In this document: positions 26,490 through 51,860 of the stretch, piece by piece
Position numbering within the stretch: the first letter of the stretch is position 1
Layout: every line of letters begins with the position of its first letter
NCBI GenBank assembly: GCA_947085285.1
Contig: CAMTVZ010000138.1
Location: forward strand, 330 to 64,329
Source of the DNA: an uncultured Ignavibacteriota bacterium
Lineage (GTDB): Bacteria > Bacteroidota > Ignavibacteria > UBA10030 > BY39
Length of the DNA stretch: 64,000 bases
Direction of reading: 5' to 3'
Position numbers and translations under genes: made by a program
Notes under the pieces: model-generated
Database searches by the model: none
Told to the model about the DNA's origin: nothing
The model's input: the letters and a program-made list of their open reading frames with translations, nothing else

Positions 26490-26503
26490 GGGGGATAAAG
26501 AAT
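26490..26503 (-). promoter_or_regulatory. G-tract motif copy 3 (plus strand GGGGGATAAAGAAT), upstream of fliL.
   Basis: It abuts the sigma-28-like -35 and lies about 100 nt upstream of the sigma-54-like box. Confidence 0.4.
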
Positions 26504-26560
26504 TTATGATATAATTGAGTGTAGAATATTAGCCAAGTTAACTCTGCCGGATTGTGTATG

Positions 26561-27787
26561 TTATGGAATGGAATATTTTACACGTATAGGCTCTTTGATC
26601 GAGTCGCTCTTTTGCCATTGAAGAATCATTTTAATAAAAGTCTCGGTTAATATCGAGTATGAGCGAATTAGACACAGCCCATTTCTTGTTACGATATCCT
26701 GCATTAAAATCATTCCTGCCTGTAGCTCTTCAACGGTAACGTATTTTTCAACTTCATTCTTTTGTTGTTGGCTTTGCTCTGTTCCGAAAAATAAGTTCAA
26801 TAATTCTGGGTCATAAATATCGTTAGTGCTTACTAATTTTTTGTATAAATCACTCCCCTTATTATTCAAAGATATAAGTTTATCCATATCAATTAAGATA
26901 CGAAGCAACCGTGAGCCAAGAGGTAATTCGTTTCGACATACTTTTTCGAGTACCGGTTCCCCCTTTCCACTGTAATCTTTTTTACTAAAACGAATAATTC
27001 GTGCTACATTTTTAAATTTTGGTATGTTCTCAATCAGAGCCGCACCAAGAAGCTGGTGATTTTTTGCTTCAGCAAACCTTTCGATAGCCGATAGTCCCTC
27101 TTTGTTAAGTATAACTTGTATCCATGCTGGCAAAACAGCCACGCCAATATTGAATAAATCGAAAGCACTTTCAATCTCCCAACGTTCTAATTCACTTAAG
27201 GGGGGCAATTTTTTCAAAAAAACATTCCCTAATTGTCGTACTCGCATTGTTTGAGCATTTGCCTCGGGATTGATATAGACAATTAAGTCGCTCAGCAAGC
27301 GAACAGTACCACCAACTGTTCCACTGAGAAGCTCGTTAAGTTGAGAGTTTTTCGACTTAAGTACATTCAGTAAATATTTGTTTTCTTGTAATAGATTGTA
27401 TTTTTCAAGAGAATCTCTGAGTAGTTTTTTTAGGTCGTTATCATTCCATGGTTTATTTATATAATGACTGATTTTACCGATATTGATTGCCCGCAGTGTG
27501 TCGTCGAAATCGGCATACCCTGTAATCATTATTCGGATTGTTTCAGGGGAATATTCTGACACGGTTTGTAGTACTTTAACTCCATCTACTACCGGCATTC
27601 TCTGGTCTGAAAATACTACTGCGAAAGGGCCATGTAGATTGAGATAATCCTCTATTCTCTCAGATTTATCAAGAAGATGAATGTCGCAGTTTTCGTTGCG
27701 CATAAGGGAGCGAAAAGCCGAAAGAAGATTAGGTTCGTCATCAACATATAGAATTTTTCGATTTTGAGTATAAGTATCAGTTAGCAT
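26561..27787 (-). CDS. Response regulator with a receiver domain and a highly degenerate HD-GYP-like C-terminal domain.
   Basis: The REC domain reads ILYVDDEPN...FSDQRMPVVDG. The C-terminus reads DYSGKGEP where DGSGYP would be expected. No HD dyad is present. Confidence 0.6.
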   Translation of the reverse strand: MLTDTYTQNRKILYVDDEPNLLSAFRSLMRNENCDIHLLDKSERIEDYLNLHGPFAVVFSDQRMPVVDGVKVLQTVSEYSPETIRIMITGYADFDDTLRAINIGKISHYINKPWNDNDLKKLLRDSLEKYNLLQENKYLLNVLKSKNSQLNELLSGTVGGTVRLLSDLIVYINPEANAQTMRVRQLGNVFLKKLPPLSELERWEIESAFDLFNIGVAVLPAWIQVILNKEGLSAIERFAEAKNHQLLGAALIENIPKFKNVARIIRFSKKDYSGKGEPVLEKVCRNELPLGSRLLRILIDMDKLISLNNKGSDLYKKLVSTNDIYDPELLNLFFGTEQSQQQKNEVEKYVTVEELQAGMILMQDIVTRNGLCLIRSYSILTETFIKMILQWQKSDSIKEPIRVKYSIP

Positions 27788-27790
27788 AAA

Positions 27791-28984
27791 TTAAACCTTG
27801 ATTTTATTTAGCCATTTTTCTATAACATCCTGATTTTCGGCAGCATCGTTCAATTCTAACATTTCAGCGATCTGCATAATTTTAGAAATTTCGTTTCCAT
27901 TTTGATTAATATGATGGGATACTACAGCATCGATAATTTCTTCAGGATAATTCCATAGACGTAAAAGCTCGGCACTTATTTGTTCATGAGAAATTGGAAA
28001 AATTTTTTTGTCGGCTTCTGACAGTTTTATTTTTTCAGATTTTTGGATTGAAAGCATTTTTTCGTACTTCTCAAAATCTGAACAGATTCTGACTAACAAC
28101 CCAATATCTTGTAGCATCGATGCCACGTAAACTGTTTGTGAATCAACGGGGGTGCTCCAATGGGCCGATACCTCTTTCGCAAACAATGCACGTTTTAAAG
28201 CATTATCCCAAAATATTTCGACCTGTTTTTGAACTTCATCTGGTAAATCTTTCATCAAATTCTGATACATATCGATCGCTAAGGCGAGAATTTGTACGTA
28301 CGAGGTCCCTATAAAAATGATAGCATCCCTAATGCTTGAAATATGTTTATAAGAAGCGTAATAAACAGAATTAGCAATTTGTAATACTTTAGCTATAAGT
28401 ACCGGGTTTTGCCTGACCTCTTCGACAAGTTCGTTGAGGGAGCTTTCTTTTTTATTTAAAAAAGAATGGAATCGTTCGTTAAACTTTTTTGAGGGGGGTA
28501 AATTATTGAACTTCAATAAAACATCCGACAACTTTTCGCTACGTAGTTCGTTTTGCAGTTTTATCGTTTTCGAAATGTAGTTCTTTAGCGTTGCATCGTC
28601 CCACGGTTTTAAAAAGTATTGATTAGCCAATCCATTACTCAACGCATCTAAAATTATTTCTTTTTCTTCATAACCACTTACTATTACACGAATAGCATCG
28701 GGGCAAATTTCTTTTGCCACTCTTAACAAATCAAGCCCCCCTATTTCAGGCATTCGCATGTCGGTTAGAATTATATCCACATTATAATTTTCGAACTGAG
28801 AAATTGCTTCTTTGGCAGAAGTAAATTGTAAAATGTTATAACCCTCATGTCGAAACAACCGACTTAATGCCGAAAGTATGGCTTGCTCGTCATCTATAAA
28901 AAATAATGTTGTTTGAACATTAAACGATAATTTTTGAATTTCTTTTTTTTCAGAATTAAACATTTTTATTCTATAGGCTCCCAT
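27791..28984 (-). CDS. Response regulator with a receiver domain and an HDOD domain.
   Basis: The REC domain reads LFFIDDEQAI...LTDMRMPEIGG. The HDOD domain reads NELVEEVRQNPVLIAKVLQIANSVYYAS. Confidence 0.75.
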   Translation of the reverse strand: MGAYRIKMFNSEKKEIQKLSFNVQTTLFFIDDEQAILSALSRLFRHEGYNILQFTSAKEAISQFENYNVDIILTDMRMPEIGGLDLLRVAKEICPDAIRVIVSGYEEKEIILDALSNGLANQYFLKPWDDATLKNYISKTIKLQNELRSEKLSDVLLKFNNLPPSKKFNERFHSFLNKKESSLNELVEEVRQNPVLIAKVLQIANSVYYASYKHISSIRDAIIFIGTSYVQILALAIDMYQNLMKDLPDEVQKQVEIFWDNALKRALFAKEVSAHWSTPVDSQTVYVASMLQDIGLLVRICSDFEKYEKMLSIQKSEKIKLSEADKKIFPISHEQISAELLRLWNYPEEIIDAVVSHHINQNGNEISKIMQIAEMLELNDAAENQDVIEKWLNKIKV

Positions 28985-31760
28985 TTGTGTGTGGGAGGGT
29001 TATTCGGAATTTTGTCCCTTTATTTACTTCACTTTCAACAGTGAGTGTGCCTTTATGTTTTTGTATAATTGTCTTTGATATCCATAACCCGAGCCCTGTA
29101 CCTTTGCCAACAGCTTTAGTAGTAAAAAATGGATCGAAAATTTTATTCAAATGTTCGATAGCAATCCCACTTCCGTTATCGGAAATTTCAATAATAGCGT
29201 TCTTATCTTCAGCAAAAGTTTTGATTTTAATAAATCCTTTTTCGGGTATAGCTTGAGCAGCATTCACTAATAAATTAGTAAAGACTTGCTTAAGTTCGCC
29301 CGGATTGCACTTTATGAGAGGAAGAGAACTATATTCTTTTTTGATGTCAGCTTTATATTTTATTTCATTCCATACTAATGTTAAAGTATCCTCAATAGCA
29401 TCATGAATATTACTATCAATAAATTTATCGTCACCTTTATGCGAAAACACCCGTAGCTTATCGACTATAGTCTTAATTCTTTGTGTTCCTTCTCTTGTCT
29501 CTGCAATAAGTTTATTAAAATCTTGCACAATAAAAGTAATATCAACTCGGCGTTCCAAGTCTCGTAGATCTTGCAAGAGTGCCTGTACTTCTGGTCCCTC
29601 ATTCACAAACATACCAAGAATTTGCCATTTCCTTAAAACATTCGTCAGATCTTCGATATATTCCCCAAAACGATTCAGATTGCTCGAAACAAATGCGAGG
29701 GGGTTGTTAATCTCGTGAGCAATTCCGGCTGTTAACTGTCCGATTGACGCCATTTTTTCTGATTGTATTAGGTGTTCCTGCATCTCTTTAATATTCTCGA
29801 TCATACTTTCTAATTCTTGGTTTCGCTTTAGTAGTTCCAATTCGAGAGCTTTTCGTTTCGAGATATCTCGAACAACTGCCTGGATTATTTTTTTCCCATC
29901 TAATTCCATCGCAGTTAGGAGGACTTCTGAAGGGAAATCGGTTCCATCTTTACGCCGATGTACCCATTCAAAACAGTTATTTCCTTTTTCGAGAGCGTAA
30001 TTAATTTGCTGATTTGCAAGTTGTTTTGAGTCGATATTTCCAAATTGCATCGGAGGCGAAACTTCTGCAAGATTTTGTTTACAAAATTCTTCTTTCGAGG
30101 TATAACCAAACATAGTCAGAGTTGCGTTGTTGCAATCAAAAAAACCATTTTCATCCAGAAGCATTACTGCGTTGCCGGTCGATTCATAAAGAGTACGGAA
30201 TTTTATTTCAGAATTTCTTATTGCTTCTTCTGCCATCATCTGCTCAGTTATATTTTCTATTATTCCCTCAAAAAATAATATTTCACCCGTGTCGTTCAGC
30301 TGAACCCGTTCATTCAAATTAACATATATAACGCTCCCATCTTTTTTCTTTAATTTGATTTTAAGATTCTCAGTTTTTTTTCTTTCTTTAGTTCTTTCAA
30401 GTACACTCTTCCGATCGGCTGGGTCGTAATATAGTTGCGTTGGAATATCAATACTCATTAAATCTTCTGCCGATTTATATCCTAACATTTTAACAAGTGC
30501 CCGATTTACTTTTATAAACTTACCATCTTGACTCGTTCGGAATATCCCATGGACAGCGTTTTCAAATATCGACCTGTAATCTTCTTCCGATTGTTTAAGT
30601 GCCTCTTCAATTTTCTTTCTTTCAGTAATATCTTCCCACAAACTCTCAAAAAACAGGATGTTGCCAGCCTCGTCTTCTACAATTCTTTTATCTAATTTCA
30701 CGTTTATAAGACTGCCATCTTTTTTTTTCAACACTAGTTCATAATTTTTTATACTTTTCTTCTCTATTAATTGGGAATGTAGATTAGCTTGGTCTGATGG
30801 ATTTAAATATATTTGAGTAGTAATATCGAGACTCATCAACTCTTCTTCCGACTCATATCCTAACATTTTAACCAAGGCTGGATTTACTTTGATGAACTTA
30901 CCATCTGCACTTGTTCGAGCAATTCCTTGAATAGCATTTTCAAAAATTGTTCTATAATCTCGTTCCGATTGTTTTAACTCCTCTTCGATTTTTTTTCGAG
31001 CTGTAATATCTTGCATAATACAAACAAAACCTACAAATTCTTTTTTTGAGTTACGTCTTGAAGAAATCGAGGTTTCGAAAAAACGAGTTCCATTCAACGA
31101 TTTTAGATTCCATTCGAACATTACATTCGGTTCGATCTTAGCCCGTTCCGAGGCAATCTCGAAAAGGTCGCCATTCTTTTCGCCTAATACTTCATATACA
31201 GTTTTGTTTTTATAACGGTTAAAATCTATTCCGTATATGTGTGTCATTTGTCCGTATGCTTCTTTAAAACGTAAATCTTCGTCAAGTGTAAAAACTATGC
31301 CGCTGATGGAGTCGAGGATGGTTCGCATTAATTCCTCGTTTTCGCGCAAAGTAATTTCAGCTTTTTCCTTTTGATCGATGAAGTTTTTATTTGAGATGGC
31401 TTGTTCGATAGCAGGAATGAAACGAGTAAAATTAGTTTTCATGATGTAATCGGTGGCACCGGCTTTGATCAATCCAACTGCCAGTTCTTCGTCCAAAGCC
31501 CCGGTAACAAAGATAAACGGAACAGAAGGGGCGTGCTGTTTAGCAAGTTGAAGTGCGAGCATCCCATCGAAATCGGGAATCGAATAATCCGAAAGAATAA
31601 CATCGGGTTTAAAATTTTCGAGTGCATCTAAAAAACTGTCACGCGTAGAAACTAACTTAGAAGTAAATTGCAAATGGTTAGTTTCGAAAAATTCATTATA
31701 AAGATTGAAGAATTCTTCATCATCTTCTATAATTAAAATGTGTATTTTTTCTTTCGACAC
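28971..31760 (-). CDS. Hybrid sensor kinase: N-terminal receiver, three or four PAS domains, HisKA, HATPase_c. It appears to start at a GTG codon.
   Basis: The REC domain reads ILIIEDDEE...LSDYSIPDFDG. PAS blocks repeat as QDITARKKIEE and EDITERKKIEE. The H-box reads AHEINNPLAF. The G-box reads GTGLGLWISKTI. Confidence 0.85.
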   Translation of the reverse strand: MSKEKIHILIIEDDEEFFNLYNEFFETNHLQFTSKLVSTRDSFLDALENFKPDVILSDYSIPDFDGMLALQLAKQHAPSVPFIFVTGALDEELAVGLIKAGATDYIMKTNFTRFIPAIEQAISNKNFIDQKEKAEITLRENEELMRTILDSISGIVFTLDEDLRFKEAYGQMTHIYGIDFNRYKNKTVYEVLGEKNGDLFEIASERAKIEPNVMFEWNLKSLNGTRFFETSISSRRNSKKEFVGFVCIMQDITARKKIEEELKQSERDYRTIFENAIQGIARTSADGKFIKVNPALVKMLGYESEEELMSLDITTQIYLNPSDQANLHSQLIEKKSIKNYELVLKKKDGSLINVKLDKRIVEDEAGNILFFESLWEDITERKKIEEALKQSEEDYRSIFENAVHGIFRTSQDGKFIKVNRALVKMLGYKSAEDLMSIDIPTQLYYDPADRKSVLERTKERKKTENLKIKLKKKDGSVIYVNLNERVQLNDTGEILFFEGIIENITEQMMAEEAIRNSEIKFRTLYESTGNAVMLLDENGFFDCNNATLTMFGYTSKEEFCKQNLAEVSPPMQFGNIDSKQLANQQINYALEKGNNCFEWVHRRKDGTDFPSEVLLTAMELDGKKIIQAVVRDISKRKALELELLKRNQELESMIENIKEMQEHLIQSEKMASIGQLTAGIAHEINNPLAFVSSNLNRFGEYIEDLTNVLRKWQILGMFVNEGPEVQALLQDLRDLERRVDITFIVQDFNKLIAETREGTQRIKTIVDKLRVFSHKGDDKFIDSNIHDAIEDTLTLVWNEIKYKADIKKEYSSLPLIKCNPGELKQVFTNLLVNAAQAIPEKGFIKIKTFAEDKNAIIEISDNGSGIAIEHLNKIFDPFFTTKAVGKGTGLGLWISKTIIQKHKGTLTVESEVNKGTKFRITLPHTNGSL

Positions 31761-31814
31761 TTTGCGACTTTCATTATTATTCGTCTAATTAATTTTATTT
31801 TCGCCGATTGTTTA

Positions 31815-31846
31815 TTGCTGCGAATTCTTTTCAGAATCCGCAGCAA
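31815..31846 (-). other. Long perfect stem-loop immediately 3' of flgE.
   Basis: The sequence is ttgctgcgaattct-tttc-agaatccgcagcaa, about 13 bp with one mismatch. No adjacent U-tract is present. Confidence 0.5.
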
Positions 31847-31864
31847 CAAAACACATCAACAATT

Positions 31865-33130: not shown

Positions 33131-33245
33131 AATTATGGTTCCTTTATTTTTTTATTGTTGATTAATTACCAAGCTTCTGTCGTTCGGCTCGGTAAGGGCT
33201 TCCATAAATGGACCAGCCCAATTGTTGTTTAGTTAATTATAAAAT

Positions 33246-33635
33246 TCATGATGCAATTACTGCACTGTCGATATTCGTGAATACATTTTGTTTCAACGAC
33301 TCGTTATCTATTGTCGTTATTATTGTTCTGTTTTTTACACTTACTATAAATGCCATATCGCGCAGTATCACCAGCGATTCTTGCGCACCTTTTAATTCAG
33401 CTTTATCGACTGCGGCTTCTAATTTTAAAAAATCGATGCTGCTTAATTCTATTTGTCTCGACTCGAGCCGTTCTTTGGCGTGCTTCGAAAACTTTAACTT
33501 GTTAAGCTCTTTCTGAAATATGTTTTCGAATGACCGCTCATTCGGTATTTCGATGGTTTTGTTGTTAGGTAAACCATTTACTCCGCCTATCGGAACAAAC
33601 GGAACATTCACACCATTTATTGTTGTATCCGTCAT
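33246..33635 (-). CDS. Small flagellar-operon protein between flgD and flgE, probably the family I recall as TIGR02530.
   Basis: A 129 aa protein with the motif FSKHAKERLESRQI. Its position matches the flgD-orf-flgE arrangement I recall from Clostridia and Spirochaetes. Confidence 0.45.
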   Translation of the reverse strand: MTDTTINGVNVPFVPIGGVNGLPNNKTIEIPNERSFENIFQKELNKLKFSKHAKERLESRQIELSSIDFLKLEAAVDKAELKGAQESLVILRDMAFIVSVKNRTIITTIDNESLKQNVFTNIDSAVIAS

Positions 33636-33639
33636 AATT

Positions 33640-34311: not shown

Positions 34312-34324
34312 TGATTCTCCTTCA

Positions 34325-36547: not shown

Positions 36548-36552
36548 TCCAT

Positions 36553-37911: not shown

Positions 37912-37915
37912 AAAT

Positions 37916-41101: not shown

Positions 41102-41106
41102 AATTA

Positions 41107-41412: not shown

Positions 41413-41414
41413 AT

Positions 41415-41663
41415 CTATCCTTTCCTGTCGATTACTGTTCCAACCTGCATTTTTTTTGGAGTTCCTGATTTGCTGTAAAAATATTCTTCCCGAATTTCCT
41501 TCGAAGCTTCGGGAAAAACCTTTTCAAAAAATTTTGTTTCGGCCTTTGATAAAATTTCGTTCTTAATGTTCTCTGTAATTTGAAAATTAGCCTTGTCGGC
41601 TTTCTTATATTTATTTACCAAAAGCGATTGGGTGATTGATGATTTTATTTCGTTAACATTCAT
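41415..41663 (-). CDS. Hypothetical 82 aa lysine-rich protein inserted between flgC and fliE.
   Basis: A tightly packed ORF with 3-nt gaps on both sides. I recognise no family. The canonical flgB-flgC-fliE triplet is interrupted here. Confidence 0.4.
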   Translation of the reverse strand: MNVNEIKSSITQSLLVNKYKKADKANFQITENIKNEILSKAETKFFEKVFPEASKEIREEYFYSKSGTPKKMQVGTVIDRKG

Positions 41664-41666
41664 TAA

Positions 41667-42164: not shown

Positions 42165-42583
42165 GAATATCCTTTTATACTTTTTTGAATACCTTTAAAA
42201 CTATCGGCAATAATTCGTGCAGCAAACTTAAACCTGATTTGATTTTTTGCTAACTCAGCCATTTCTAAATCGATGTCCACATCGTTAATACCGCTTTTTA
42301 GTTCATTGTCGCTATTCCCCTCCACAGAATTTTCAACTACTTTTGGATTTAGATCCGTAAACTTTGAAGAGTTTATAGGAATATGATCAGGATGAGTGCA
42401 GCCATCTATGTTGGAATTTTTCGACATCGCTAAGTTTAGTTCTTCCTCAAATCTTACACTTTTACTTTTGTATCCTTCTGTAGTAATGTTTGCAATATTC
42501 AATGCGATTGTTTTTTGACGGAGCGAATAAGCATCGAGGGCTTTGCTCAACAACGGTATTTTTGTCTTGTTGAAAATATTCAT
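42161..42583 (-). CDS. flgB: Proximal rod protein FlgB.
   Basis: The N-terminus reads LDAYSLRQKTIALNIANITTEGYK. The C-terminus reads MAELAKNQIRFKFAARI. Confidence 0.85.
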   Translation of the reverse strand: MNIFNKTKIPLLSKALDAYSLRQKTIALNIANITTEGYKSKSVRFEEELNLAMSKNSNIDGCTHPDHIPINSSKFTDLNPKVVENSVEGNSDNELKSGINDVDIDLEMAELAKNQIRFKFAARIIADSFKGIQKSIKGYS

Positions 42584-42804
42584 TTGCTATCCTTAAATAA
42601 CGAAGCTGGAATCGCCAGCGATGTTCCACAGCAATCTATTTGATGTGTAAATATCAACAACCCTTCCGGTCGCAAACCCAAATGTATTTTTTTTCTGTCT
42701 ATCATGTGTCCATTAAAATCGATATCCTGGTCATTCAAAAAGGTTTCTTTCGATTCCCAGCTTTTTCCACATAAAGTACAGTTTTTAAAAACTTTATTTC
42801 GCAT
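42580..42804 (-). CDS. Small Cys-containing protein with CxxC and a CC pair, possibly a zinc ribbon. It is the first ORF of the flgB operon.
   Basis: The 74 aa protein starts MRNKVFKNCTLCGKSW and ends QIDCCGTSLAIP. It overlaps the flgB start by 4 nt. Its ATG lies about 20 nt downstream of the putative sigma-54 box. Confidence 0.4.
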   Translation of the reverse strand: MRNKVFKNCTLCGKSWESKETFLNDQDIDFNGHMIDRKKIHLGLRPEGLLIFTHQIDCCGTSLAIPASLFKDSK

Positions 42805-42831
42805 ATATTCTTTTTGTTTTTAAAACATATG

Positions 42832-42847
42832 TTCAAACGATGTGCCA
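42832..42847 (-). promoter_or_regulatory. Putative sigma-54 promoter of the flgB operon (TGGCAC-N5-TTGAA).
   Basis: The minus strand reads TGGCACATCGTTTGAA, about 28 nt upstream of the first ATG (42804). The -12 element reads TTGA, not TTGC. A sigma-54 activator is encoded immediately upstream. Confidence 0.5.
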
Positions 42848-42999
42848 CGAAGAAATTTTATTGAAATAGGCAATTAATTAGAAAAATAGAACAGTATTTG
42901 GAGACTATTAGACAAACTGTTAACTATTAGCCAACGGATGTAAATTAGATAGTGAGGTGTACAAAAGAATAAGCAGCTACAGAAATAATATTGTTTTTT

Positions 43000-43015
43000 G
43001 GGGGGGATAATGAAC
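43000..43015 (-). promoter_or_regulatory. G-tract motif copy 2 (plus strand GGGGGGGATAATGAAC), about 155 nt upstream of the flgB sigma-54 box.
   Basis: A G7 homopolymer inside the same motif. Confidence 0.4.
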
Positions 43016-43192
43016 AGGCAAGGAGTTTTTTTGCTAGTGAGAGGTATCGTCAAGCTAACACGGTGGTTGGGCAAGCTTAATATCCACAATTAGAGACCTC
43101 TTAAAAAAAATTAAATCTCTAATGAATTAATCATTTGGGTAGAACACGTGCGAAGTATCACATCGGTAGATAAACACCGATTATTATCAGTG

Positions 43193-44608
43193 TTAATTTA
43201 ACGATTGTATTTTAGCTGTTTTATCTGTGTCGATCCCTAATTGTTCCATTCTATAACGAAGTTTCGACCTCGATATACCTAAAATTTTAGCTGCTTGAAC
43301 TTGATTACCATTAGTTAGGATCAAAGTTTTTAGGATTAGATCTTTAACCACCTTCTCCATTTTGATTCCAGTGGGCGGAATATCAAGGTTATATTCGCTG
43401 TTTGTCGATCTTTTTTCTTCGTGTTTATGTACAACGGGGTCTAAAAAATAAAAATGGTCAACCTCGATAATAGGGCAATCGTTAAGAAGATTTACTCGCT
43501 CGATCGCATTTCGTAATTCACGAACATTACCTTTCCAGCGGTATGCTTGCAGATACTCGATAGCTTCCTTGCTAATTTTGATAGCCGGTTTACCAAAACG
43601 TTTACTAAATTCTTCTTGGAATGCAGCGGTAATGGGAGGTATATCTTCGGGGCGCTCACGTAGTGGTGGAATATGAATACTTGCAACGTTAATGCGGTAA
43701 TAGAGGTCTTCGCGAAATCTGCCAGCTGCAACTTCCTTGGCAAGGTTGCGATTAGTAGCGGCAATAATTCGTACATCTACTTTTATTTCAGTATTCCCTC
43801 CAAGTCGGTAAAATTTCTTCTCCTCGAGGACACGTAACAGTTTGACTTGCATCTCAAGTGAGAGTTCTCCAATTTCATCTAACAAAATAGTACCACCGTC
43901 AGCAAGTTCAAATTTTCCAAGTTTCATTTTCTCCGAAGCTCCAGTAAAAGCTCCTTTCTCGTATCCAAATAATTCGCTTTCAGCCAAATCTTTTGGAATG
44001 GCACCACAATTTATTGTGATAAAGAGATTATCAGCACGATTGCTTTTTTCATAAATATAACGGGCAATTAGCTCTTTTCCCGTACCGCTCTCGCCTTCAA
44101 GTAAAACAGTTGTGTTGCTTTTGGCTAACTTGTTTGCAACCTGCAGAACTTTGTGCATTTTATCGCTTTTATAAATTATGCCTAAGTGTGAGCGAGTTTC
44201 TTCTAGCTCCTCTTTGAGTAAACTTACCTGATTTATCAACCGGTGTTGCAACAAAGCTTTTTCAATTATGATTTTTAGTCTATTCAAATCTATCGGCTTT
44301 TCAATAAAATCTTCGGCCCCTTCTTTCATTGCCTCGACCGCAAGATTAACATTAGCTTGTCCGGTAATCATAACAACAGGTATTTTCCAACCCTCCTTAT
44401 TAATTTTCTTTAAAAGCTGAATTCCGTTTAATTCTCCTAAATATACATCCAATAAAATAATATCGGGGTGTGTTTGTGCCAGAACTGAAAACAAATTTTT
44501 TCCGGCAAAACAGCTACTTACATCGTAGCCCCAAGTAGTGAGGATTTTTTCAAACGTTTGGACGATCATTGGTTCGTCGTCGACAACTAAAATTTTTTTC
44601 TTACTCAT
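43193..44608 (-). CDS. Sigma-54-dependent response regulator (NtrC family: REC, AAA+ sigma-54 activation domain, Fis HTH), FleR/FlgR/FlrC-like.
   Basis: The REC domain reads ILVVDDEPM...LLDVYLGELNG. Walker A reads LLEGESGTGKELIARYIY. The GAFTGA motif appears as EKGAFTGAS. The HTH reads AAKILGISRSKLRYRMEQLGI. Confidence 0.9.
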   Translation of the reverse strand: MSKKKILVVDDEPMIVQTFEKILTTWGYDVSSCFAGKNLFSVLAQTHPDIILLDVYLGELNGIQLLKKINKEGWKIPVVMITGQANVNLAVEAMKEGAEDFIEKPIDLNRLKIIIEKALLQHRLINQVSLLKEELEETRSHLGIIYKSDKMHKVLQVANKLAKSNTTVLLEGESGTGKELIARYIYEKSNRADNLFITINCGAIPKDLAESELFGYEKGAFTGASEKMKLGKFELADGGTILLDEIGELSLEMQVKLLRVLEEKKFYRLGGNTEIKVDVRIIAATNRNLAKEVAAGRFREDLYYRINVASIHIPPLRERPEDIPPITAAFQEEFSKRFGKPAIKISKEAIEYLQAYRWKGNVRELRNAIERVNLLNDCPIIEVDHFYFLDPVVHKHEEKRSTNSEYNLDIPPTGIKMEKVVKDLILKTLILTNGNQVQAAKILGISRSKLRYRMEQLGIDTDKTAKIQSLN

Positions 44609-45645
44609 ATATTATTCTTTTGTGAAAAAATTATACGTGTTATTAAGCCACCGTCGGGCGATTTTTCGACTTGCATTTTTGCATTATTGCACATCAGAAA
44701 ATCGGTAGTAAAGGGTTTGGTAGCTTCGCTTGATTTTATGAAATAGCCAACACTCATATTAAAATTTGCATTAAATTCTTCTATCGAAACGCCAGAATTT
44801 GAATCTTTAATAACAACAAAAATACTGTACGGTGGTAAGGCAGGTTTGGCGAATGATAATTCTAAAATTCCGCTCGTTACTGTAATTCGCGAATTTTCAG
44901 GGGAATAGTAAATTACTGTTTTCAATATATTTTTGAAAGCTTCTGTAATTTGTTTGGAATTAATTTTAATCGCTGGTAAATCTTCGTCTAAATGTAAATC
45001 AAGTTGTAGGTTCTTCTCTTTTATTGGAATAAGAATTGCTTGTATTGCTTCCATCATTAAACTATTTACATCATGGTCGGTTTGTGTATTATCGCCAAGG
45101 TGTATAAGGGATGCTATCCGTTCCAGAATGTTAGTAATTCTGTTGCTCGCCTTTATAGCAAAATTGATTTCGGCCCGATCTTTATCGTGTCCGGTTTGTT
45201 GAAGAAATTGCAAATTCATTATAATAATACCTAAGGGGTTGCGAATTTCGTGTACTATGCGAGCAGTAAAATTTGATAAATTAGAAAAAAATTGTTGAAA
45301 CGAATTTATCTTTTTTTTAAAATTTTCAGAAGATATTTCCTGAATGAATAACGCAACCTCGTTGTTGGCTAAACCACCGATGTGACTGACGATAATGTAA
45401 ATATCGAAAATGTTGTTATTTTTAGTTTTTAAATAATACTCGCCCGATTTAAAAGTTTTTGTGTCTACAGCCTTGCTGGCATCGGCATCTTCATAAATTG
45501 GAAATGTTTGTAAATTAAGAATCTCGATTTCCGAAAAACCAAATAATTGAAGAGCCGATTCGTTAATATCAACCACCCTTGCCTCATTCGTGTTAACTAT
45601 AATAACTGGATTTTTTATAGTTTTTATAAAATCAACTATGTTCAT
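44605..45645 (-). CDS. Cytoplasmic PAS-type sensor histidine kinase paired with the sigma-54 activator (FleS/FlgS-like).
   Basis: The H-box reads ARIVHEIRNPLGII. The HATPase D-box reads VIKDSNSGVS. There is no TM segment. It overlaps the regulator start by 4 nt. Confidence 0.8.
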   Translation of the reverse strand: MNIVDFIKTIKNPVIIVNTNEARVVDINESALQLFGFSEIEILNLQTFPIYEDADASKAVDTKTFKSGEYYLKTKNNNIFDIYIIVSHIGGLANNEVALFIQEISSENFKKKINSFQQFFSNLSNFTARIVHEIRNPLGIIIMNLQFLQQTGHDKDRAEINFAIKASNRITNILERIASLIHLGDNTQTDHDVNSLMMEAIQAILIPIKEKNLQLDLHLDEDLPAIKINSKQITEAFKNILKTVIYYSPENSRITVTSGILELSFAKPALPPYSIFVVIKDSNSGVSIEEFNANFNMSVGYFIKSSEATKPFTTDFLMCNNAKMQVEKSPDGGLITRIIFSQKNNI

Positions 45646-45683
45646 TAAATTATTAACAGGAAAATTTTAAATTATAATGATGG

Positions 45684-45712
45684 TTATTATATAAAAAATT
45701 TGGGTAATAAAC
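45684..45712 (-). promoter_or_regulatory. Possible sigma-70-type promoter for the kinase/sigma-54-activator operon.
   Basis: The minus strand reads TTGTTT-N17-TATAAT, about 40 nt upstream of the kinase ATG. A G-tract motif lies just 5' of the -35. Confidence 0.25.
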
Positions 45713-45716
45713 AACA

Positions 45717-45730
45717 GAGGGGGAAAATGA
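45717..45730 (-). promoter_or_regulatory. G-tract motif copy 4 (plus strand GGGGGAAAATGAAG), upstream of the kinase/sigma-54-activator operon.
   Basis: It lies 4 nt 5' of the putative -35. Confidence 0.35.
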
Positions 45731-45781
45731 AGCCCTTTTCGCTGAGAGCGAAATTTATTGATATAACTATGCCGTAGCGAA

Positions 45782-46045
45782 CTAAGAAGGTTCGTTTTTT
45801 AAATCTTTTAAAACCTTCTCTGCAATTTTTTCTAAAACTTCGTACTGATCATAAAACCCTTCTTTAAGTTTTTTTTCGATCTCTTCTAATTGTTTTACTT
45901 TTTGATCTTTTGCGAGAGCACGAGCTGCTTCCGATATGTTCACCTTGTCGGTGTCCGACGGCTTGGTATTTTCGGTCGGCTTCGTTTTCTTTAATTTCGG
46001 TATCTCGACCGGATATCCACTTTTATTTATTTTATTAATAGTCAT
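45782..46045 (-). CDS. flgM: Anti-sigma-28 factor FlgM.
   Basis: The 87 aa protein ends in ISEAARALAKDQ...KLKEGFYDQYEVLEKIAEKVLKD, which resembles the sigma-28-binding helices. Confidence 0.7.
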   Translation of the reverse strand: MTINKINKSGYPVEIPKLKKTKPTENTKPSDTDKVNISEAARALAKDQKVKQLEEIEKKLKEGFYDQYEVLEKIAEKVLKDLKNEPS

Positions 46046-46057
46046 AATAATCTCTTT

Positions 46058-46462
46058 TTATTTGTACGATGCAATTGCTTTTTGAATTGTAGCTTTTTTA
46101 ATTAATTCGATCAATTCGTTTTTTTTTGTGTCGAGCGTGTAAGATAACAATTCGTTACTGTTACGTAATTCTTCAAATAGGGGTAAAAATATTTCATTCA
46201 GTTTGTCTTTTACTTCTATGCTTGTAGTAAAATAATAAATTTTCTCTTTTAATAAAACTGCCCGATTTAATAACACTTCTCGTTTTTCTATCAGCTCGGT
46301 TGCTTTATCGTATTCCTCATTCGCAATACATTGTGTGAGGAAAGAAGTAATTGAGTTGATATTTTCGCAAATCTGCCTTTGTTCAACGATAAATTTTTCG
46401 ATGTTGCTGATCGCAGTTTTATATTCAAATGTATAACTCGTATTTATGTTACGATTTTTCAT
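46058..46462 (-). CDS. Putative flagellar chaperone (FlgN/FliT-like), all-helical, 134 aa.
   Basis: It sits between flaG and flgM. It has helical heptad character. No motif is decisive. Confidence 0.3.
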   Translation of the reverse strand: MKNRNINTSYTFEYKTAISNIEKFIVEQRQICENINSITSFLTQCIANEEYDKATELIEKREVLLNRAVLLKEKIYYFTTSIEVKDKLNEIFLPLFEELRNSNELLSYTLDTKKNELIELIKKATIQKAIASYK

Positions 46463-46784
46463 CGACCAGCAGTCCTATAAATTTTGCAATATTTTCAGAA
46501 ATCTTCCTCAATTCCTTGGGAGGGATTTCTTTTATTACTTCATTAGTTTCAGAATCTATCAATCTGATTATTACTTTTTTAGTTTTTTCGTCTATCGAGA
46601 AAGTTAAATTAATTTTATACTGACTGATTTTTTCGTTTATTATTTTTGTCAGTTCAATAATTTTTTCGACAGATAAATTATCTTCAGCTTTTTGTATTAT
46701 TCTACTTTTACGGCTAAGCCCCTTATCGTTCGTATCGACCACGCCCGATTTATTAATTTGCGATATGTTTTCGATAGATTTCAT
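46449..46784 (-). CDS. flaG: FlaG family protein.
   Basis: The C-terminus reads TFSIDEKTKKVIIRLIDSETNEVIKEIPPKELRKI. It is next to fliD. Confidence 0.6.
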   Translation of the reverse strand: MKSIENISQINKSGVVDTNDKGLSRKSRIIQKAEDNLSVEKIIELTKIINEKISQYKINLTFSIDEKTKKVIIRLIDSETNEVIKEIPPKELRKISENIAKFIGLLVDEKS

Positions 46785-46790
46785 AAAATA

Positions 46791-48218
46791 TTACCAACCT
46801 GCCATAATGTTTCGCACAAGTTGCTGTTGTTGAGTAATCATAGATAAAATATTTTGAATCTTATTTAGGTCGTTCCGAAAATTATTTACTTTTTTGTTAA
46901 TCTGTACTTCTGTCAATTTAATCCGGTTGTCGAGATTTTTGATTTGTGTATTAATACCATCGTTTGATTTATCGACAACGCCACCCGAACTTATAAAATT
47001 CTGCAATAAATCTTTCAACCGAACCGCAATTCCATTTGAAGAGTTAAAAAGATCAGTTACCTTATTGGGGTTATTTGTCAGAGCCTCATCTAAAGCTGAG
47101 CTATTGCTTATACTTAAAGTTCCATCTTTAGCAGCGGTTATTCCAATCTGTGATAGAGATCCGGGGTTTTCGGGGTTTAAATTAGTTACAAAACCCTCAA
47201 CAGTTGTTCTGAGTTTTAGTCGAAGATTAATAAAAACAGAATCGCCAGACAATATTTGTCGAACGCCAGTACTACCATCGACTGCAGTTTTAGCTTTAAT
47301 AAACTTTATTACACTGTTATATTCTTCTATAAATTTTTGAATTTTCAATTTTAGCTTTTCTGTGTCACGCATAACACTCAGGGTAATTGGAAGTTCGTTT
47401 TCGCTTTGAACACTTTTCAATTCAAACGTTAGCCCCGAAATTACGTCGTTTACCATATTTGAACTGCGAACTATATCAATACCATTTAATTTAAAACGTG
47501 CATCAAGTTCCGAGACTTGATTGTATAAATAGCCGCCGGCATTTCCGGAGGTTACCGTTCGTGAATTTAGTACCGACTGGCTCAATCCGATGCTACTTAA
47601 TAAACCTTCTCCCGTTTCATATAATGATATTGCATTTGTCGAACCTGTTTCTGTACTGTTCAATACTAGACGGCTCGTCGTGGATGTTACTGCAATAACC
47701 GAAGCTTTCAACTTTAAACCTAACCCATTAACAGCGGTAGAAATTTTTGTCAATACAGAATTATTGGCTTCTCCTTCAGACAAATTAACTGATATTTCTT
47801 TTTCTTGACCGTTAATTGAAACACTAAACAAGTGCGTGCCGGCGCCGGCAGTATCTACGATCGAATTACTGTCCCTTTCTATCGCTCCTGAAATTAGAGA
47901 ATCAGATTTTGCCAAACTGCTTACTGATAAACTATAACTTCCTAAAGCGTCGGCAGATGAAGCAGTAGCCGAAACTACATTAGTGTTTGAAGACGATACT
48001 TTATAGCCGATAAGATTCGTCGACGCTCCATCTACACTCATATCTTTAACCTGGTTAAAGAAGGAATTTAGCTTCATTTTCATTTCAGAAAGTACATTAA
48101 GGCGTACTTTCAATGTGGTCTTTCTATTTTCCAATGAAGTGATAGGTTTACGTAAGCTTAAGCGATACTTTTGAACTAATCCATCGATCGATGCCGACAA
48201 TGATGATACATCAGTCAT
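46791..48218 (-). CDS. fliD: Filament cap protein FliD.
   Basis: The N-terminus reads ASIDGLVQKYRLSLRKPITSLENRKTTLKVRLNVLSEMKMKLNSF. Length is 475 aa. The C-terminal helix is present. Confidence 0.85.
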   Translation of the reverse strand: MTDVSSLSASIDGLVQKYRLSLRKPITSLENRKTTLKVRLNVLSEMKMKLNSFFNQVKDMSVDGASTNLIGYKVSSSNTNVVSATASSADALGSYSLSVSSLAKSDSLISGAIERDSNSIVDTAGAGTHLFSVSINGQEKEISVNLSEGEANNSVLTKISTAVNGLGLKLKASVIAVTSTTSRLVLNSTETGSTNAISLYETGEGLLSSIGLSQSVLNSRTVTSGNAGGYLYNQVSELDARFKLNGIDIVRSSNMVNDVISGLTFELKSVQSENELPITLSVMRDTEKLKLKIQKFIEEYNSVIKFIKAKTAVDGSTGVRQILSGDSVFINLRLKLRTTVEGFVTNLNPENPGSLSQIGITAAKDGTLSISNSSALDEALTNNPNKVTDLFNSSNGIAVRLKDLLQNFISSGGVVDKSNDGINTQIKNLDNRIKLTEVQINKKVNNFRNDLNKIQNILSMITQQQQLVRNIMAGW

Positions 48219-48226
48219 AACTTATC

Positions 48227-48586
48227 TCATCTATTTAATTTAAAAGCATCAACCCAACTTGAGCGGAGTTCTTCAAAAACTAACTCAACTTCCTCGAAAT
48301 TACCTTTACGCAGGCAACGTTTGCAATAATCGTATAATTGGAAAAGTTGAACAGCAATTTCGTTATTATCGAAATTCAGCGAGCTGATAAGTTCGGTTAA
48401 TACACGTTGTGCGAGCCGGAGGTCATGTTTTTTACATGCAACTATTTCGGTGTCGTATAATTTTCTGATCACTTCAACTGGCGAAAGGTTCAGGAGTTGT
48501 TCCTTTTGATAGGTTTTAACTGCCGCTGCAACAATTCCATTTTTCACATTTGATTCGGTGTTATTTATAGTTTCCTGACGATACAT
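48227..48586 (-). CDS. fliS: Flagellin chaperone FliS.
   Basis: YQKEQLL...ELISSLNFD...LFQLYDYCKRCL...SSWVDAF aligns with the FliS family. Confidence 0.8.
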   Translation of the reverse strand: MYRQETINNTESNVKNGIVAAAVKTYQKEQLLNLSPVEVIRKLYDTEIVACKKHDLRLAQRVLTELISSLNFDNNEIAVQLFQLYDYCKRCLRKGNFEEVELVFEELRSSWVDAFKLNR

Positions 48587-48629
48587 TTTATCATTTTATT
48601 AAAGTTAGTTATTGAGTTTAATAAAGAAG

Positions 48630-48671
48630 AAACCCGTCCGATAAAAATCAAATCGGACAGGTTTCTTTTTA
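48630..48671 (-). terminator. Hairpin terminator or attenuator between flagellin and fliS.
   Basis: A 13-bp stem (AAACCCGTCCGAT/ATCGGACAGGTTT, one mismatch) is flanked by T-rich sequence on both strands. It starts 8 nt after the flagellin stop. Confidence 0.5.
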
Positions 48672-48678
48672 CGCATGA

Positions 48679-49503
48679 TTAACGGAACAATGATAAGAAT
48701 ACTTGTGGTGAACTGTTTGCTTGAGCTAATTGAGCTGTAGCAGTCTGTTGTAAGAACTGTAATTTTACTGCAGCGATTTGCTCTTTTGCAACGTCGGCAT
48801 CAAGTATACGGCTTTTTGCAGCTTCCGTATTGGTGATCGCGGTTGTCAGGTTTGTTTCTTTTATCGACAAACGATTAACTGCGGCACCGATTTTTCCGAT
48901 TTCCGCATTAACAGTTTGCAATGCTGTATCAACTGTTAAACCTGCAACGTTAGACCTAGTAATTGAACCACCGGCGGTACCCAACAAAGCAGATGAACCT
49001 ACAGAAGCACCGAAGGCAACTGTGAATATTTCGGTTGAAGCTTCGCCAACCTGGAAATCTACGGAATAACTTCCGTTTAAGAGAGTTGTACCGTTGAATT
49101 TGGTTTGCGCCACGATATCGTCAATTTCTGTTGCTAATTGGTCGATTTCTGAAGCTATTGCGTCTTGCTCGTCGTTGCCCATAGCACCATTGTTAAAGCG
49201 GGCTTGTTTTTCTTTTATTTGAACGAGAATATCGGCAATTGTTTGATAACCACCTTCGGCGACACCATAAACGCTCTGTGCATCTCCAACGTTATCCAAA
49301 GCCATGCTCATAGCACGAACGCGGCCCTCCATTTTCTTGGAAATGACATAACCCGACGCATCGTCGGCTGCTGTGTTGATTCGCTTACCGCTGGCAAGTC
49401 GAAGTTGATGAATTCCCATCTCACGATTTACAGTGTTTAAAGCATTGAGTGCGTTAAATGCAGAGATGTTAGTATTGATTCTTGAACCTGATGAAAATGA
49501 CAT
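48679..49503 (-). CDS. fliC: Flagellin. It is short (274 aa, mainly the D0/D1 domains).
   Basis: The N-terminus reads RINTNISAFNALNALN...LASGKRINTAADDASGYVISKKM. The C-terminus reads AQANSSPQVFLSLFR. A sigma-28 promoter lies upstream. Confidence 0.9.
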   Translation of the reverse strand: MSFSSGSRINTNISAFNALNALNTVNREMGIHQLRLASGKRINTAADDASGYVISKKMEGRVRAMSMALDNVGDAQSVYGVAEGGYQTIADILVQIKEKQARFNNGAMGNDEQDAIASEIDQLATEIDDIVAQTKFNGTTLLNGSYSVDFQVGEASTEIFTVAFGASVGSSALLGTAGGSITRSNVAGLTVDTALQTVNAEIGKIGAAVNRLSIKETNLTTAITNTEAAKSRILDADVAKEQIAAVKLQFLQQTATAQLAQANSSPQVFLSLFR

Positions 49504-49509
49504 AAATAA

Positions 49510-49552
49510 CCTCCATGTTATTTGTTATTGTTAGTTTTGGGCATCCATGCCC
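49510..49552 (-). promoter_or_regulatory. Flagellin 5' leader with two GGA motifs, one in a hairpin loop and one over the Shine-Dalgarno. These are candidate CsrA binding sites.
   Basis: The leader reads GGGCATGGATGCCC (stem GGGCA/TGCCC, loop TGGA) and CATGGAGG, which overlaps the RBS GGAGG 6 nt before the ATG. csrA and fliW are present in the locus. Confidence 0.45.
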
Positions 49553-49602
49553 GTTGTTTAGTTGTTTATTATTTAAAGGAGCTACTTAACTCCTCTACTT
49601 AT

Positions 49603-49629
49603 ATTATCGGCAGGATTTTAAAAATCTTT
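49603..49629 (-). promoter_or_regulatory. Sigma-28 (FliA) promoter of the flagellin gene: TAAA-N15-GCCGATAA.
   Basis: The minus strand reads TAAAGATTTTTAAAATCCTGCCGATAA. This is a perfect consensus with a 15-nt spacer, about 100 nt upstream of the flagellin ATG. fliA is encoded in the window. Confidence 0.75.
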
Positions 49630-49643
49630 AGGGGGGATATGAA
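49630..49643 (-). promoter_or_regulatory. G-tract motif copy 1 (plus strand GGGGGGATATGAAT), abutting the -35 of the flagellin sigma-28 promoter.
   Basis: One of four intergenic copies of GGGGG(G)AWAWWGAA in this AT-rich window. Confidence 0.4.
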
Positions 49644-49646
49644 TAA

Positions 49647-51829: not shown

Positions 51830-51860
51830 ACATCCTCCAATTTAATTTTAGTATTTTACT

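What the first reader, a model, noticed from the sequence alone, without database searches (positions are those of the whole stretch)
26490..49643. Recurrent G-tract motif GGGGG(G)AWAWWGAA in four flagellar promoter regions
The four copies are 49630-49643 (GGGGGGATATGAAT), 43000-43015 (GGGGGGGATAATGAAC), 26490-26503 (GGGGGATAAAGAAT) and 45717-45730 (GGGGGAAAATGAAG). All four lie in the rare intergenic regions of an AT-rich locus, upstream of flagellin, the flgB operon, the fliL operon and the kinase/sigma-54-activator operon. In three cases the motif directly abuts the 5' side of a -35-like element, which is where an activator or UP-like site would sit. In the flgB case it lies about 155 nt upstream of the sigma-54 box, an enhancer-like distance. 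This could be an operator for a locus-wide regulator. Because it is built on G5-G7 homopolymers, it could also be a slipped-strand phase-variation switch of the kind used in Campylobacter flagellar regulation.
Basis: seen in the sequence. Interest (0 to 1): 0.7.

Follow-up and report, generated by a model that had tools for sequence, protein, structure and literature searches.

The report
Short C-runs beside flagellar promoters
Four look-alike G/C-run motifs do sit in the promoter regions of a flagellar gene cluster from an uncultured Ignavibacteria-like bacterium, but only the flagellin copy is conserved, as the upstream edge of an ordinary sigma-28 promoter, and there is no sign of a shared operator or a phase-variation switch.

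Summary
The four copies exist, though two coordinates are off by 1-2 nt. Within this genome they are non-random. Every gene in the window is on the minus strand, so in the direction of transcription the motif reads TTCWT(W)WT-C5-7.

Each copy lies in an intergenic region with a different promoter class:
- sigma-28 for flagellin
- sigma-70-type for the kinase/sigma-54-activator operon
- sigma-54 for the flgB and fliL operons

Three related metagenomic species give the following picture:
- The flagellin C-run is invariant. It starts the conserved promoter block CCCCC-TAAAG-N14-GCCGATAA.
- The TTCAT half is not conserved anywhere.
- The other three C-runs decay to TATCCC-like patches in the two nearest relatives and vanish in the third.
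- All four species keep the sigma-54 boxes, the sigma-70 hexamers and a TGGCTAATA upstream site at fixed distances.

Tracts of 5-7 nt are too short, and wrongly placed, for slipped-strand switching. They are identical in assemblies from two other sequencing runs.

Verdict: this is an ordinary sigma-28 promoter with a clade-specific C-rich flank, plus three species-specific pyrimidine patches. A clade-restricted TATCCC operator is not excluded (about 0.2). Low interest.

The parts
49631..49644 (-). Motif copy 1, ATTCATATCCCCCC on the coding strand. C6 is 49631-49636.
   Evidence: The C5-6 run is invariant in species B, C and D, but the TTCAT part is not.
49604..49631 (-). Sigma-28 (FliA) promoter of flagellin, CTAAAG-N14-GCCGATAA. 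Its first C is the last C of the run.
   Evidence: PWM built from 24 Ignavibacteria flagellin promoters: 27.1 bits, the only strong site in the window. Invariant in four species. The FliA gene is in the window.
45719..45732 (-). Motif copy 4, CTTCATTTTCCCCC. TTCATTTT doubles as the T-tail of a terminator-like hairpin at 45749-45732.
   Evidence: Relatives have TTATCCCGCC (B), TGTCCCTCC (C) and no run (D).
45686..45714 (-). Sigma-70-type promoter TTGTTT-N17-TATAAT of the kinase/sigma-54-activator operon, 4 nt downstream of copy 4.
   Evidence: Both hexamers and the 17-nt spacing are conserved in four species. Coordinates.
43000..43015 (-). Motif copy 2, GTTCATTATCCCCCCC (C7), in the spacer between the activator gene and the flgB control region.
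   Evidence: Identical in ERR3478705 (L086). Species C has TATCCCCC, B has TATCCC, D has nothing.
42904..42934 (-). Two tandem TTGGCTAATAGT / TTGTCTAATAGT sites, the candidate sigma-54 enhancer (UAS) for flgB.
   Evidence: Conserved in A-D at 86+-1 nt from the sigma-54 box. Also present in a distant Ignavibacteriales MAG.
42832..42847 (-). Sigma-54 promoter TGGCACATCGTTTGAA of the flgB operon.
26490..26503 (-). Motif copy 3, ATTCTTTATCCCCC, in the non-conserved spacer between the two UAS copies of the fliL region.
   Evidence: Relatives have CTATCCC (B), ATCTCCC (C) and no C3+ at all (D).
26524..26536 (-). UAS copy 1 of the fliL region, TTGGCTAATATTC.
   Evidence: Conserved in A-D, 138-140 nt upstream of the sigma-54 box.
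26460..26472 (-). UAS-like copy 2, CTGCCCGATATTC.
   Evidence: Conserved as YTGACYGATATTC in B-D, 67-69 nt after copy 1. It fails the sigma-28 PWM at the -35.
26381..26396 (-). Sigma-54 promoter TGGCACAAGAATTGAA of fliL.
16065..16784 (-). FliA/WhiG-family sigma-28 gene.
   Evidence: TIGR02479 scores 190.5 bits against a cut-off of 189.6. Pfam finds Sigma70 r2 and r4.
43193..45645 (-). PAS-HisKA kinase (44605-45645) and REC-AAA+-HTH_8 sigma-54 activator (43193-44608).

Best explanation
On the transcribed (minus) strand the motif is a T-rich stretch followed by a C5-7 run. It is not one regulatory device.

The flagellin copy. At flagellin the C-run is the 5' edge of a classical sigma-28 (FliA) promoter. 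The last two or three C's fall inside the xCTAAAG -35 element that sigma region 4 reads. The remaining C's are a clade-specific C-rich extension reaching to about -41. FliA holoenzyme, encoded in the same window, transcribes flagellin from this promoter.

The other three copies. These lie in poorly conserved spacer DNA at operon boundaries, next to promoters of other classes. One is sigma-70-type, for the kinase/activator operon. Two are sigma-54 with a TGGCTAATA upstream activator site, for flgB and fliL. They are species-specific expansions (CCC to C5-7) of a short TATCCC-like pyrimidine patch. Their T-rich halves partly coincide with terminator tails. Relatives keep the real control elements at fixed spacing without them, so they are probably dispensable.

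Shown: the positions, the promoter classes, and the pattern of conservation or its absence. Inferred: that FliA contacts the C's, and that the three other copies have no sequence-specific role.
For: - All genes are on the minus strand.
- The flagellin site is CCCCCC-TAAAG-N14-GCCGATAA. It scores 27.1 bits on a sigma-28 PWM, against 15 bits for the next best site, which lies in coding DNA.
- The block conserved across four species starts exactly at the C-run. Upstream of it the sequence and the neighbouring genes differ.
- In 42 sigma-28-like sites from Ignavibacteria/Kapabacteria, position -1 is C in 31, and positions -3 and -4 are C in about 40%. Runs of C5 or longer are rare.
- In P. aeruginosa the -35 element is TCTAAAG and sigma region 4 contacts -37 to -30 (PMC12784957).
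- FliA is present in the window.
- Copies 2-4 are not conserved.
- The sigma-54 boxes and the UAS sit at 86+-1 nt (flgB) and 138-140 nt (fliL) in all four species.
- TTGTTT-N17-TATAAT is conserved.
- Terminator hairpins lie directly 5' of copies 1 and 4.
Against: - The four copies in this genome resemble each other more than chance allows: flank test P about 2e-4, and 4 intergenic C5+ runs against 0.7 expected.
- A TATCCC core recurs at homologous places in the two nearest species. All three TATCCC in 22 kb of species B are in these intergenic regions, and species C has TATCCCCC in the flgB region. This hints at some constraint that a purely neutral account does not explain.
- No experiment or transcript data exist for this uncultured lineage.
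Confidence: 0.55

Rival explanations
1. TATCCC(C)n, extended in this species to TTCWTWWT-C5-7, is the operator of an unidentified, clade-restricted DNA-binding factor. The factor would bind just upstream of promoters of all three flagellar tiers (sigma-70, sigma-54, sigma-28) and tune the whole regulon together.
For: - The motif is non-random within the window and rare in other Ignavibacteria loci.
- A TATCCC-like core sits at homologous positions in species B and C, and all TATCCC in B's 22 kb are in these intergenic regions.
- The motif lies 0-4 nt upstream of the -35 at flagellin and at the kinase operon.
Against: - It is absent from three of the four regions in species D, and from more distant Ignavibacteria that keep the same promoters and UAS.
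- Its distance to the neighbouring promoter elements varies: 2, 4 and 12 nt to the kinase -35, and 48-78 nt to the flgB UAS.
- The only DNA-binding domain found among the window proteins scanned is the activator's HTH_8, and a better conserved site exists for that. About 20 ORFs, at 640-9203 and 49905-63979, were not scanned or gave no informative hit.
- Sharing between A, B and C may simply be common descent.
Confidence: 0.22
2. The pyrimidine stretches are operon-boundary signals, not promoter elements. They would be U-rich tails of intrinsic terminators, or C-rich, G-poor Rho-loading (rut-like) stretches, ending the upstream operon before the next promoter.
For: - All four lie at the 3' end of an upstream co-directional operon.
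- Copies 1 and 4 directly follow hairpins. These are AAAGCCCC...GGGGCTTTTTT at 49650-49679 and GCTCT...AGGGC at 45749-45732, and TTCAT(T)TT forms part of the T-tail.
Against: - No hairpin precedes copies 2 and 3.
- At flagellin the conserved part is the C-run attached to the -35, not the T-tail. Upstream genes and terminators differ between species.
- A single 5-7 nt C-run is far shorter than a rut site (established knowledge).
Confidence: 0.1
3. The G/C homopolymers are slipped-strand phase-variation switches for flagellar expression.
For: The tracts are homopolymeric and sit near flagellar promoters. The flagellin tract is 5 or 6 nt long in different species.
Against: - The tracts are 5-7 nt. 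Campylobacter phase-variable tracts are mainly G9-G10, and tracts shorter than 7 are described as not reversibly variable (PMC8355987).
- They lie upstream of the -35, so a length change would not alter -35/-10 spacing or a reading frame.
- Lengths are identical in the MAG contig, in the SRR3731039 assembly (13,082 nt, 0 mismatches, covering copies 1, 2 and 4) and, for copy 2, in ERR3478705.
Confidence: 0.03
4. The motif is the upstream enhancer bound by the locus-encoded sigma-54 activator.
For: It lies 153 nt upstream of the flgB sigma-54 box and 94 nt upstream of the fliL box.
Against: - Two of the four copies are at non-sigma-54 promoters.
- It is not conserved where the sigma-54 promoters are.
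- TGGCTAATAKT sites at fixed distance in four species and in a distant MAG are a far better candidate.
Confidence: 0.03
5. Read on the plus strand, GGGGG-AWA-ATGAA is a Shine-Dalgarno sequence plus start codon of tiny divergent ORFs.
For: Three copies carry an ATG 2-3 nt after the G-run.
Against: - The spacing is too short for a Shine-Dalgarno sequence and start codon.
- The putative peptides are short (9 to about 27 codons by eye) and unrelated to each other.
- The ATG is not kept in relatives.
- No gene in 64 kb is on the plus strand.
Confidence: 0.02

Closest known systems
Sigma-28 (FliA / SigD / WhiG) dependent late flagellar promoters, (T)CTAAAG-N14-15-GCCGATAA, such as P. aeruginosa fliC (PMC12784957) and B. 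subtilis hag
   Same: The flagellin copy abuts a textbook -35/-10 pair with canonical spacing. It lies upstream of flagellin, and a FliA-family sigma is encoded in the locus. The C immediately 5' of TAAAG is part of the known element.
   Different: Here a C5-6 run replaces the usual T/A at -36 and beyond. This run is restricted to a small clade of four species, with sporadic cases elsewhere. It is not a general Ignavibacteria feature.
Homopolymeric-tract phase variation, such as Campylobacter G/C tracts and flgR/flgS (PMC8355987). Promoter tracts in Neisseria, Haemophilus and Bordetella fim genes are cited from my own knowledge.
   Same: Homopolymeric G/C runs associated with surface or motility genes.
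   Different: The tracts are 5-7 nt, not 8 or more. They lie outside ORFs and outside the -35/-10 spacer. No length variation was seen between assemblies from different runs.
Two-component (FlgS/FlgR, FlrB/FlrC type), sigma-54, sigma-28 flagellar cascades of Campylobacterota and Vibrio (established knowledge)
   Same: The locus has the same logic. A kinase plus sigma-54 activator operon sits behind a sigma-70-type promoter. Rod and fliL operons sit behind sigma-54 promoters. Flagellin sits behind sigma-28.
   Different: The activator keeps an HTH_8 domain and has a conserved TGGCTAATA upstream site. The G/C-run motif is not part of this conserved wiring.
UP elements and extended -35 contacts of RNA polymerase
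   Same: The position is immediately upstream of the -35, at about -37 to -45, at the flagellin and kinase promoters.
   Different: UP elements are A/T-rich. A C-run is not a known alpha-CTD target, and no such element is described for sigma-28.

Membership tests
Sigma-28 (FliA) promoter, flagellin copy | -35 TAAA(G) and -10 GCCGATAA separated by about 15 nt | tested here: met
   CTAAAG-N14-GCCGATAA at 49631-49604. PWM score 27.1 bits, the top hit in the window.
Sigma-28 (FliA) promoter, flagellin copy | A FliA/WhiG-family sigma factor is encoded by the organism | tested here: met
   The product of 16065-16784(-) passes TIGR02479, 190.5 bits against a cut-off of 189.6.
Sigma-28 (FliA) promoter, flagellin copy | Conserved upstream of orthologous late flagellar genes | tested here: met
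   Invariant in species B, C and D. The same architecture occurs in many Ignavibacteria flagellin loci.
Sigma-28 (FliA) promoter, flagellin copy | FliA-dependent transcription start | not testable with these tools
   No transcript data exist for this uncultured lineage.
Sigma-28 (FliA) promoter, fliL copy | -35 TAAA(G) at the correct spacing from a CCGATA -10 | tested here: not met
   The -35 scores -0.5 bits at a 16-nt spacer. 'CCGATAT' is CTGATAT in species C and D and belongs to a repeated TGNCYRATATTC site.
Phase-variable homopolymeric tract (contingency locus) | Tract long enough for frequent reversible slippage, about 8 nt or more | tested here: not met
   Tracts are C6, C7, C5 and C5. 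Reference range from PMC8355987.
Phase-variable homopolymeric tract (contingency locus) | Tract lies in an ORF, or between promoter elements, so that its length changes expression | tested here: not met
   All four are intergenic and upstream of the -35, or in a spacer far from any promoter element.
Phase-variable homopolymeric tract (contingency locus) | Length polymorphism among reads, isolates or samples | tested here: inconclusive
   Lengths are identical in assemblies from SRR3731039 (copies 1, 2 and 4) and ERR3478705 (copy 2). Copy 3 had no second assembly.
Sigma-54 enhancer (bEBP upstream activator sequence) | Present upstream of the sigma-54 promoters of the regulon and conserved with them | tested here: not met
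   The C-run is missing from species D at both flgB and fliL, and it is also present at non-sigma-54 promoters. TGGCTAATA sites meet this criterion instead.
Transcription-factor operator shared across a regulon | Enriched upstream of co-regulated genes genome-wide | not testable with these tools
   Only a 64-kb window was available. The MAG is not among the searchable genome representatives. The window has 4 copies in about 1.4 kb of flagellar intergenic DNA and 0 in about 0.64 kb of other intergenic DNA, which is not significant.
Transcription-factor operator shared across a regulon | Conserved sequence and position in orthologous promoters | tested here: inconclusive
   A TATCCC-like core persists in species B and C but not in D. 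The TTCAT half is never conserved, and spacing to promoter elements varies.

The most novel reading that the evidence does not exclude
TATCCC(C)n is the binding site of an unidentified regulator specific to a genus-level clade of uncultured Ignavibacteria. The regulator would sit just upstream of sigma-70-, sigma-54- and sigma-28-class flagellar promoters and co-modulate all tiers of the cascade. The C5-7 runs in this species would be strengthened versions of that site.
Probability: 0.2. Interest if true: 0.45.

Novelty: new member of a known kind. Interest (0 to 1): 0.2.

Why it matters
If the main reading is right, little changes. The locus shows the familiar cascade from two-component system to sigma-54 to sigma-28, here in an uncultured Ignavibacteria lineage whose flagellar regulation has not been described. 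The I. album genome paper says nothing on promoters.

The useful outcome is a corrected regulatory map:
- one sigma-28 promoter with a clade-specific C-rich -35 flank
- sigma-54 promoters with a well conserved TGGCTAATA upstream site
- a CsrA/FliW-type flagellin leader

Only if the TATCCC core proved to be a real operator would there be a new regulator to look for.

Tried and rejected
- FliD as a single query against genome representatives found no relative. A 26-sequence FliD alignment was too divergent to search with.
- The metagenome scan with the activator alignment used only N-terminal receiver patterns. It returned paralogues of 45% identity or less, so no extra orthologous regions were gained.
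- The nearest FlgB outgroup, P0091, had no retrievable DNA.
- Rfam found nothing in the window.
- I read TTCAT(T)AT as a sigma-70 -35 with the C-run in the spacer. The consensus scan lists TTCATA-17-TAAAAT for copy 1, and by eye copy 2 fits TTCATT-18-TATTAT. Copies 3 and 4 do not fit, and the reading is not conserved.
- I read CATTAT as a -10 with a C-rich discriminator. No acceptable -35 lies 16-18 nt upstream in any copy (by eye).
- I compared the motif by eye with the DnaA box (TTATCCACA) and the IHF consensus (WATCAANNNNTTR). Both are weak partial matches only.
- Plus-strand mini-ORFs were rejected: they are not conserved and the spacing is wrong.
- A sequencing poly-G artefact was rejected, because the sequence is identical in assemblies from other runs.
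Full report
**Observation.** The four sequences are present. Every ORF of 100 aa or more that looks like a gene is on the minus strand. In the direction of transcription the motif therefore reads TTCWT(W)WT followed by C5-C7. All four copies are intergenic. They lie upstream of these genes:
- flagellin, 48679-49503
- a PAS-HisKA kinase plus REC-AAA+-HTH_8 sigma-54 activator operon, 45645-43193
- the flgB rod operon, from 42804
- fliL-fliM, from 26358

**Is it more than chance?** Four results say yes.
- The degenerate pattern gives 5 hits against 0.38 expected.
- The roughly 2.1 kb of genuine intergenic DNA holds 4 runs of C5 or longer, against 0.7 expected.
- The 10 nt 5' of the four runs are more alike than random sets of four intergenic 10-mers, P about 2e-4.
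- In 482 kb of other Ignavibacteria/Kapabacteria loci the full pattern occurs only twice, counting both strands.

The recurrence is therefore real for this genome. The pattern was chosen post hoc, however. The window also has too little non-flagellar intergenic DNA (about 0.64 kb) to show that the motif is specific to flagellar promoters.

**Source and relatives.**
- The window comes from a metagenome-assembled contig. The FliD protein is carried by NCBI and by Logan SRR3731039.
- Flagellin relatives of 66-78% identity come almost entirely from Ignavibacteria / 'Bacteroidota' MAGs.
- Through FliD, FliM and FlgB homologues I recovered syntenic loci from three related uncultured species: B (SRR15359042; L003, L082, L087), C (SRR22387906; L004, L083, L088) and D (SRR22388165; L002, L084).
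- Protein identities to the window are 55-83%.
- I also recovered the same strain from other runs: L001 (SRR3731039), and L085 and L086 (ERR3478706 and ERR3478705).

**Flagellin copy.**
- On the coding strand the sequence is ...TTCATAT-CCCCCC-TAAAG-N14-GCCGATAA.
- A sigma-28 position weight matrix, trained on 24 flagellin promoters from other Ignavibacteria, scores this site at 27.1 bits. The next best site in the window scores 15 bits and lies in coding DNA.
- A FliA/WhiG-family sigma is encoded at 16065-16784.
- In the four-species alignment the conserved block begins exactly at the C-run, with five invariant C's. It continues almost unchanged through the promoter and the 5' UTR.
- Everything upstream of the run differs, including the TTCAT half and the neighbouring genes.
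- Across 42 sigma-28-like sites from the wider group, position -1 is C in 31, and positions -3 and -4 are C in about 40%. Runs of C5 or longer are rare.
- A cryo-EM study of P. aeruginosa sigma-28 holoenzyme gives the -35 element as TCTAAAG, with sigma region 4 contacting -37 to -30 (PMC12784957).
- The 3' C's of the run therefore lie within the element that sigma-28 reads. The remaining C's are a clade-specific extension.

**Kinase/activator copy.**
- The run ends 4 nt upstream of TTGTTT-N17-TATAAT, which is conserved in all four species.
- The run itself is TTATCCCGCC in B, TGTCCCTCC in C (12 nt from the -35) and absent in D.
- Its T-rich half is also the tail of a terminator-like hairpin of the upstream operon.

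**flgB copy.**
- C7 lies 153 nt upstream of TGGCACATCGTTTGAA.
- Two tandem sites, TTGGCTAATAGT and TTGTCTAATAGT, are conserved between the run and the box. They sit 86+-1 nt upstream of the sigma-54 box in A-D.
- The same TTGGCTAATATTC precedes a sigma-54 box upstream of flgB in a distant Ignavibacteriales MAG.
- The C-run is TATCCCCC in C, TATCCC in B (28-30 nt closer to the UAS) and absent in D.

**fliL copy.** The region has a rigid architecture in A-D:
- UAS copy 1 is TGGYTRATATTC.
- A second copy, YTGMCYGATATTC, follows 67-69 nt later.
- The sigma-54 box TGGCAY-N5-TTGA follows 70-72 nt after that.

The PWM gives its -35 a score of -0.5 bits, and species C and D have CTGATAT there. The C5 run lies in the variable spacer between the two UAS copies. 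That spacer reads CTATCCC in B and ATCTCCC in C, and it has no C3+ at all in D.

**Phase variation.**
- The tracts are 5-7 nt long and lie upstream of the -35 or in spacers. A change in length would alter neither a reading frame nor -35/-10 spacing.
- The Logan assembly of SRR3731039 matches the window over 13,082 nt with no mismatch, including C6, C5 and C7.
- A contig from a different run, ERR3478705, has the identical flgB region with C7.
- Campylobacter phase-variable tracts are mainly G9-G10. The shorter flgR/flgS tracts (fewer than 7 repeats) are described as not reversibly variable (PMC8355987).
- Read-level heterogeneity could not be checked.

**What remains unexplained.** A TATCCC-like core sits at homologous positions in A, B and partly C.
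- In A, three of the eleven TATCCC in 64 kb are in these intergenic regions.
- In B, all three TATCCC in 22 kb are.
- C has TATCCCCC in the flgB region.

This may be shared ancestry in slowly diverging spacers, with slippage lengthening CCC to C5-7 in the window's lineage. It may instead reflect weak constraint from an unknown factor. Three points argue against an operator:
- Its spacing to neighbouring promoter elements varies.
- It is absent from species D and from all more distant relatives, which keep the same promoters.
- The four regions use three different sigma factors.

I put the operator reading at about 0.2.

**Conclusion.** The copies are promoter-proximal, and the flagellin copy does abut a -35. 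The data do not support a locus-wide operator, a sigma-54 enhancer or a phase switch. The conserved regulatory logic of the locus has three parts:
- a sigma-70-type promoter for the kinase/activator operon
- sigma-54 promoters with TGGCTAATA upstream sites for flgB and fliL
- one sigma-28 promoter for flagellin

The flagellin promoter's C-rich 5' flank is the one conserved instance of the reported motif.

**Approaches that led nowhere.** These are listed under Tried and rejected.

Noticed in passing
window 42904-42934 (-) and 26524-26536 / 26460-26472 (-); L169 9720-9732: A conserved TTGGCTAATAKT-type site lies upstream of both sigma-54 promoters at fixed distances in four species: 86+-1 nt for flgB, and 138-140 nt for fliL with a second copy 67-69 nt downstream of the first. 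It also occurs upstream of flgB in a distant Ignavibacteriales MAG. It is probably the enhancer of the HTH_8-bearing sigma-54 activator.
   Followed up: partly
window 49504-49600 (-); csrA 3515-3766 (-); fliW-like ORF 3778-4182 (-): The flagellin 5' UTR is almost invariant in four species. It folds (z = -4.5) into three hairpins. Two of them present GGA in the loop, and one of those contains the Shine-Dalgarno sequence. A CsrA gene and a FliW-like ORF, both recognised by eye, are in the window. This suggests CsrA/FliW-type translational control of flagellin, as in B. subtilis.
   Followed up: partly
window 1-64000: All of the roughly 68 genes in the 64-kb window (flagellar, chemotaxis-related and others) are on the minus strand, with no credible plus-strand gene.
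   Followed up: no
window 26460-26490 versus L083 9330-9375 and L084 9340-9385: In species C and D the fliL spacer carries a sigma-70-like TTGTTG-N18-GATATT. In the window and in species B the -35 part is replaced by C-rich/TAA sequence. This may be promoter turnover overlying the second UAS copy.
   Followed up: no
window 33131-33245 (-): The region upstream of flgE contains the hairpin GGGCUGGUCCAUUUAUGGAAGCCC, with GGA near its 3' side. It resembles the flagellin-leader hairpin. No sigma-54 or sigma-28 box was recognised there.
   Followed up: no
window 42580-42804, 41415-41663, 45782-46045, 46058-46462, 13171-13812 (all -): Five small or medium ORFs are embedded in the flagellar operons (74, 82, 87, 134 and 213 aa). 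None has a Pfam or NCBIfam hit. The four small ones have counterparts at the same positions in the related species' loci.
   Followed up: no
loci L007, L008, L015, L023, L049 and others: Several species-representative MAGs carry Ignavibacteria-type flagellin loci (70-74% identity to the window, or 37-39% for the Kapabacteria-like ones). Their titles read Chitinophagales, Chitinophaga pinensis, Synechococcus or Hyphomicrobiales, which are probably taxonomic mislabels or mis-binned contigs.
   Followed up: no
window 49650-49716 (-): Two consecutive GC-rich terminator hairpins separate the upstream CarboxypepD_reg-like gene from the flagellin promoter. The proximal one has A- and T-runs on both sides and so looks bidirectional.
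   Followed up: no
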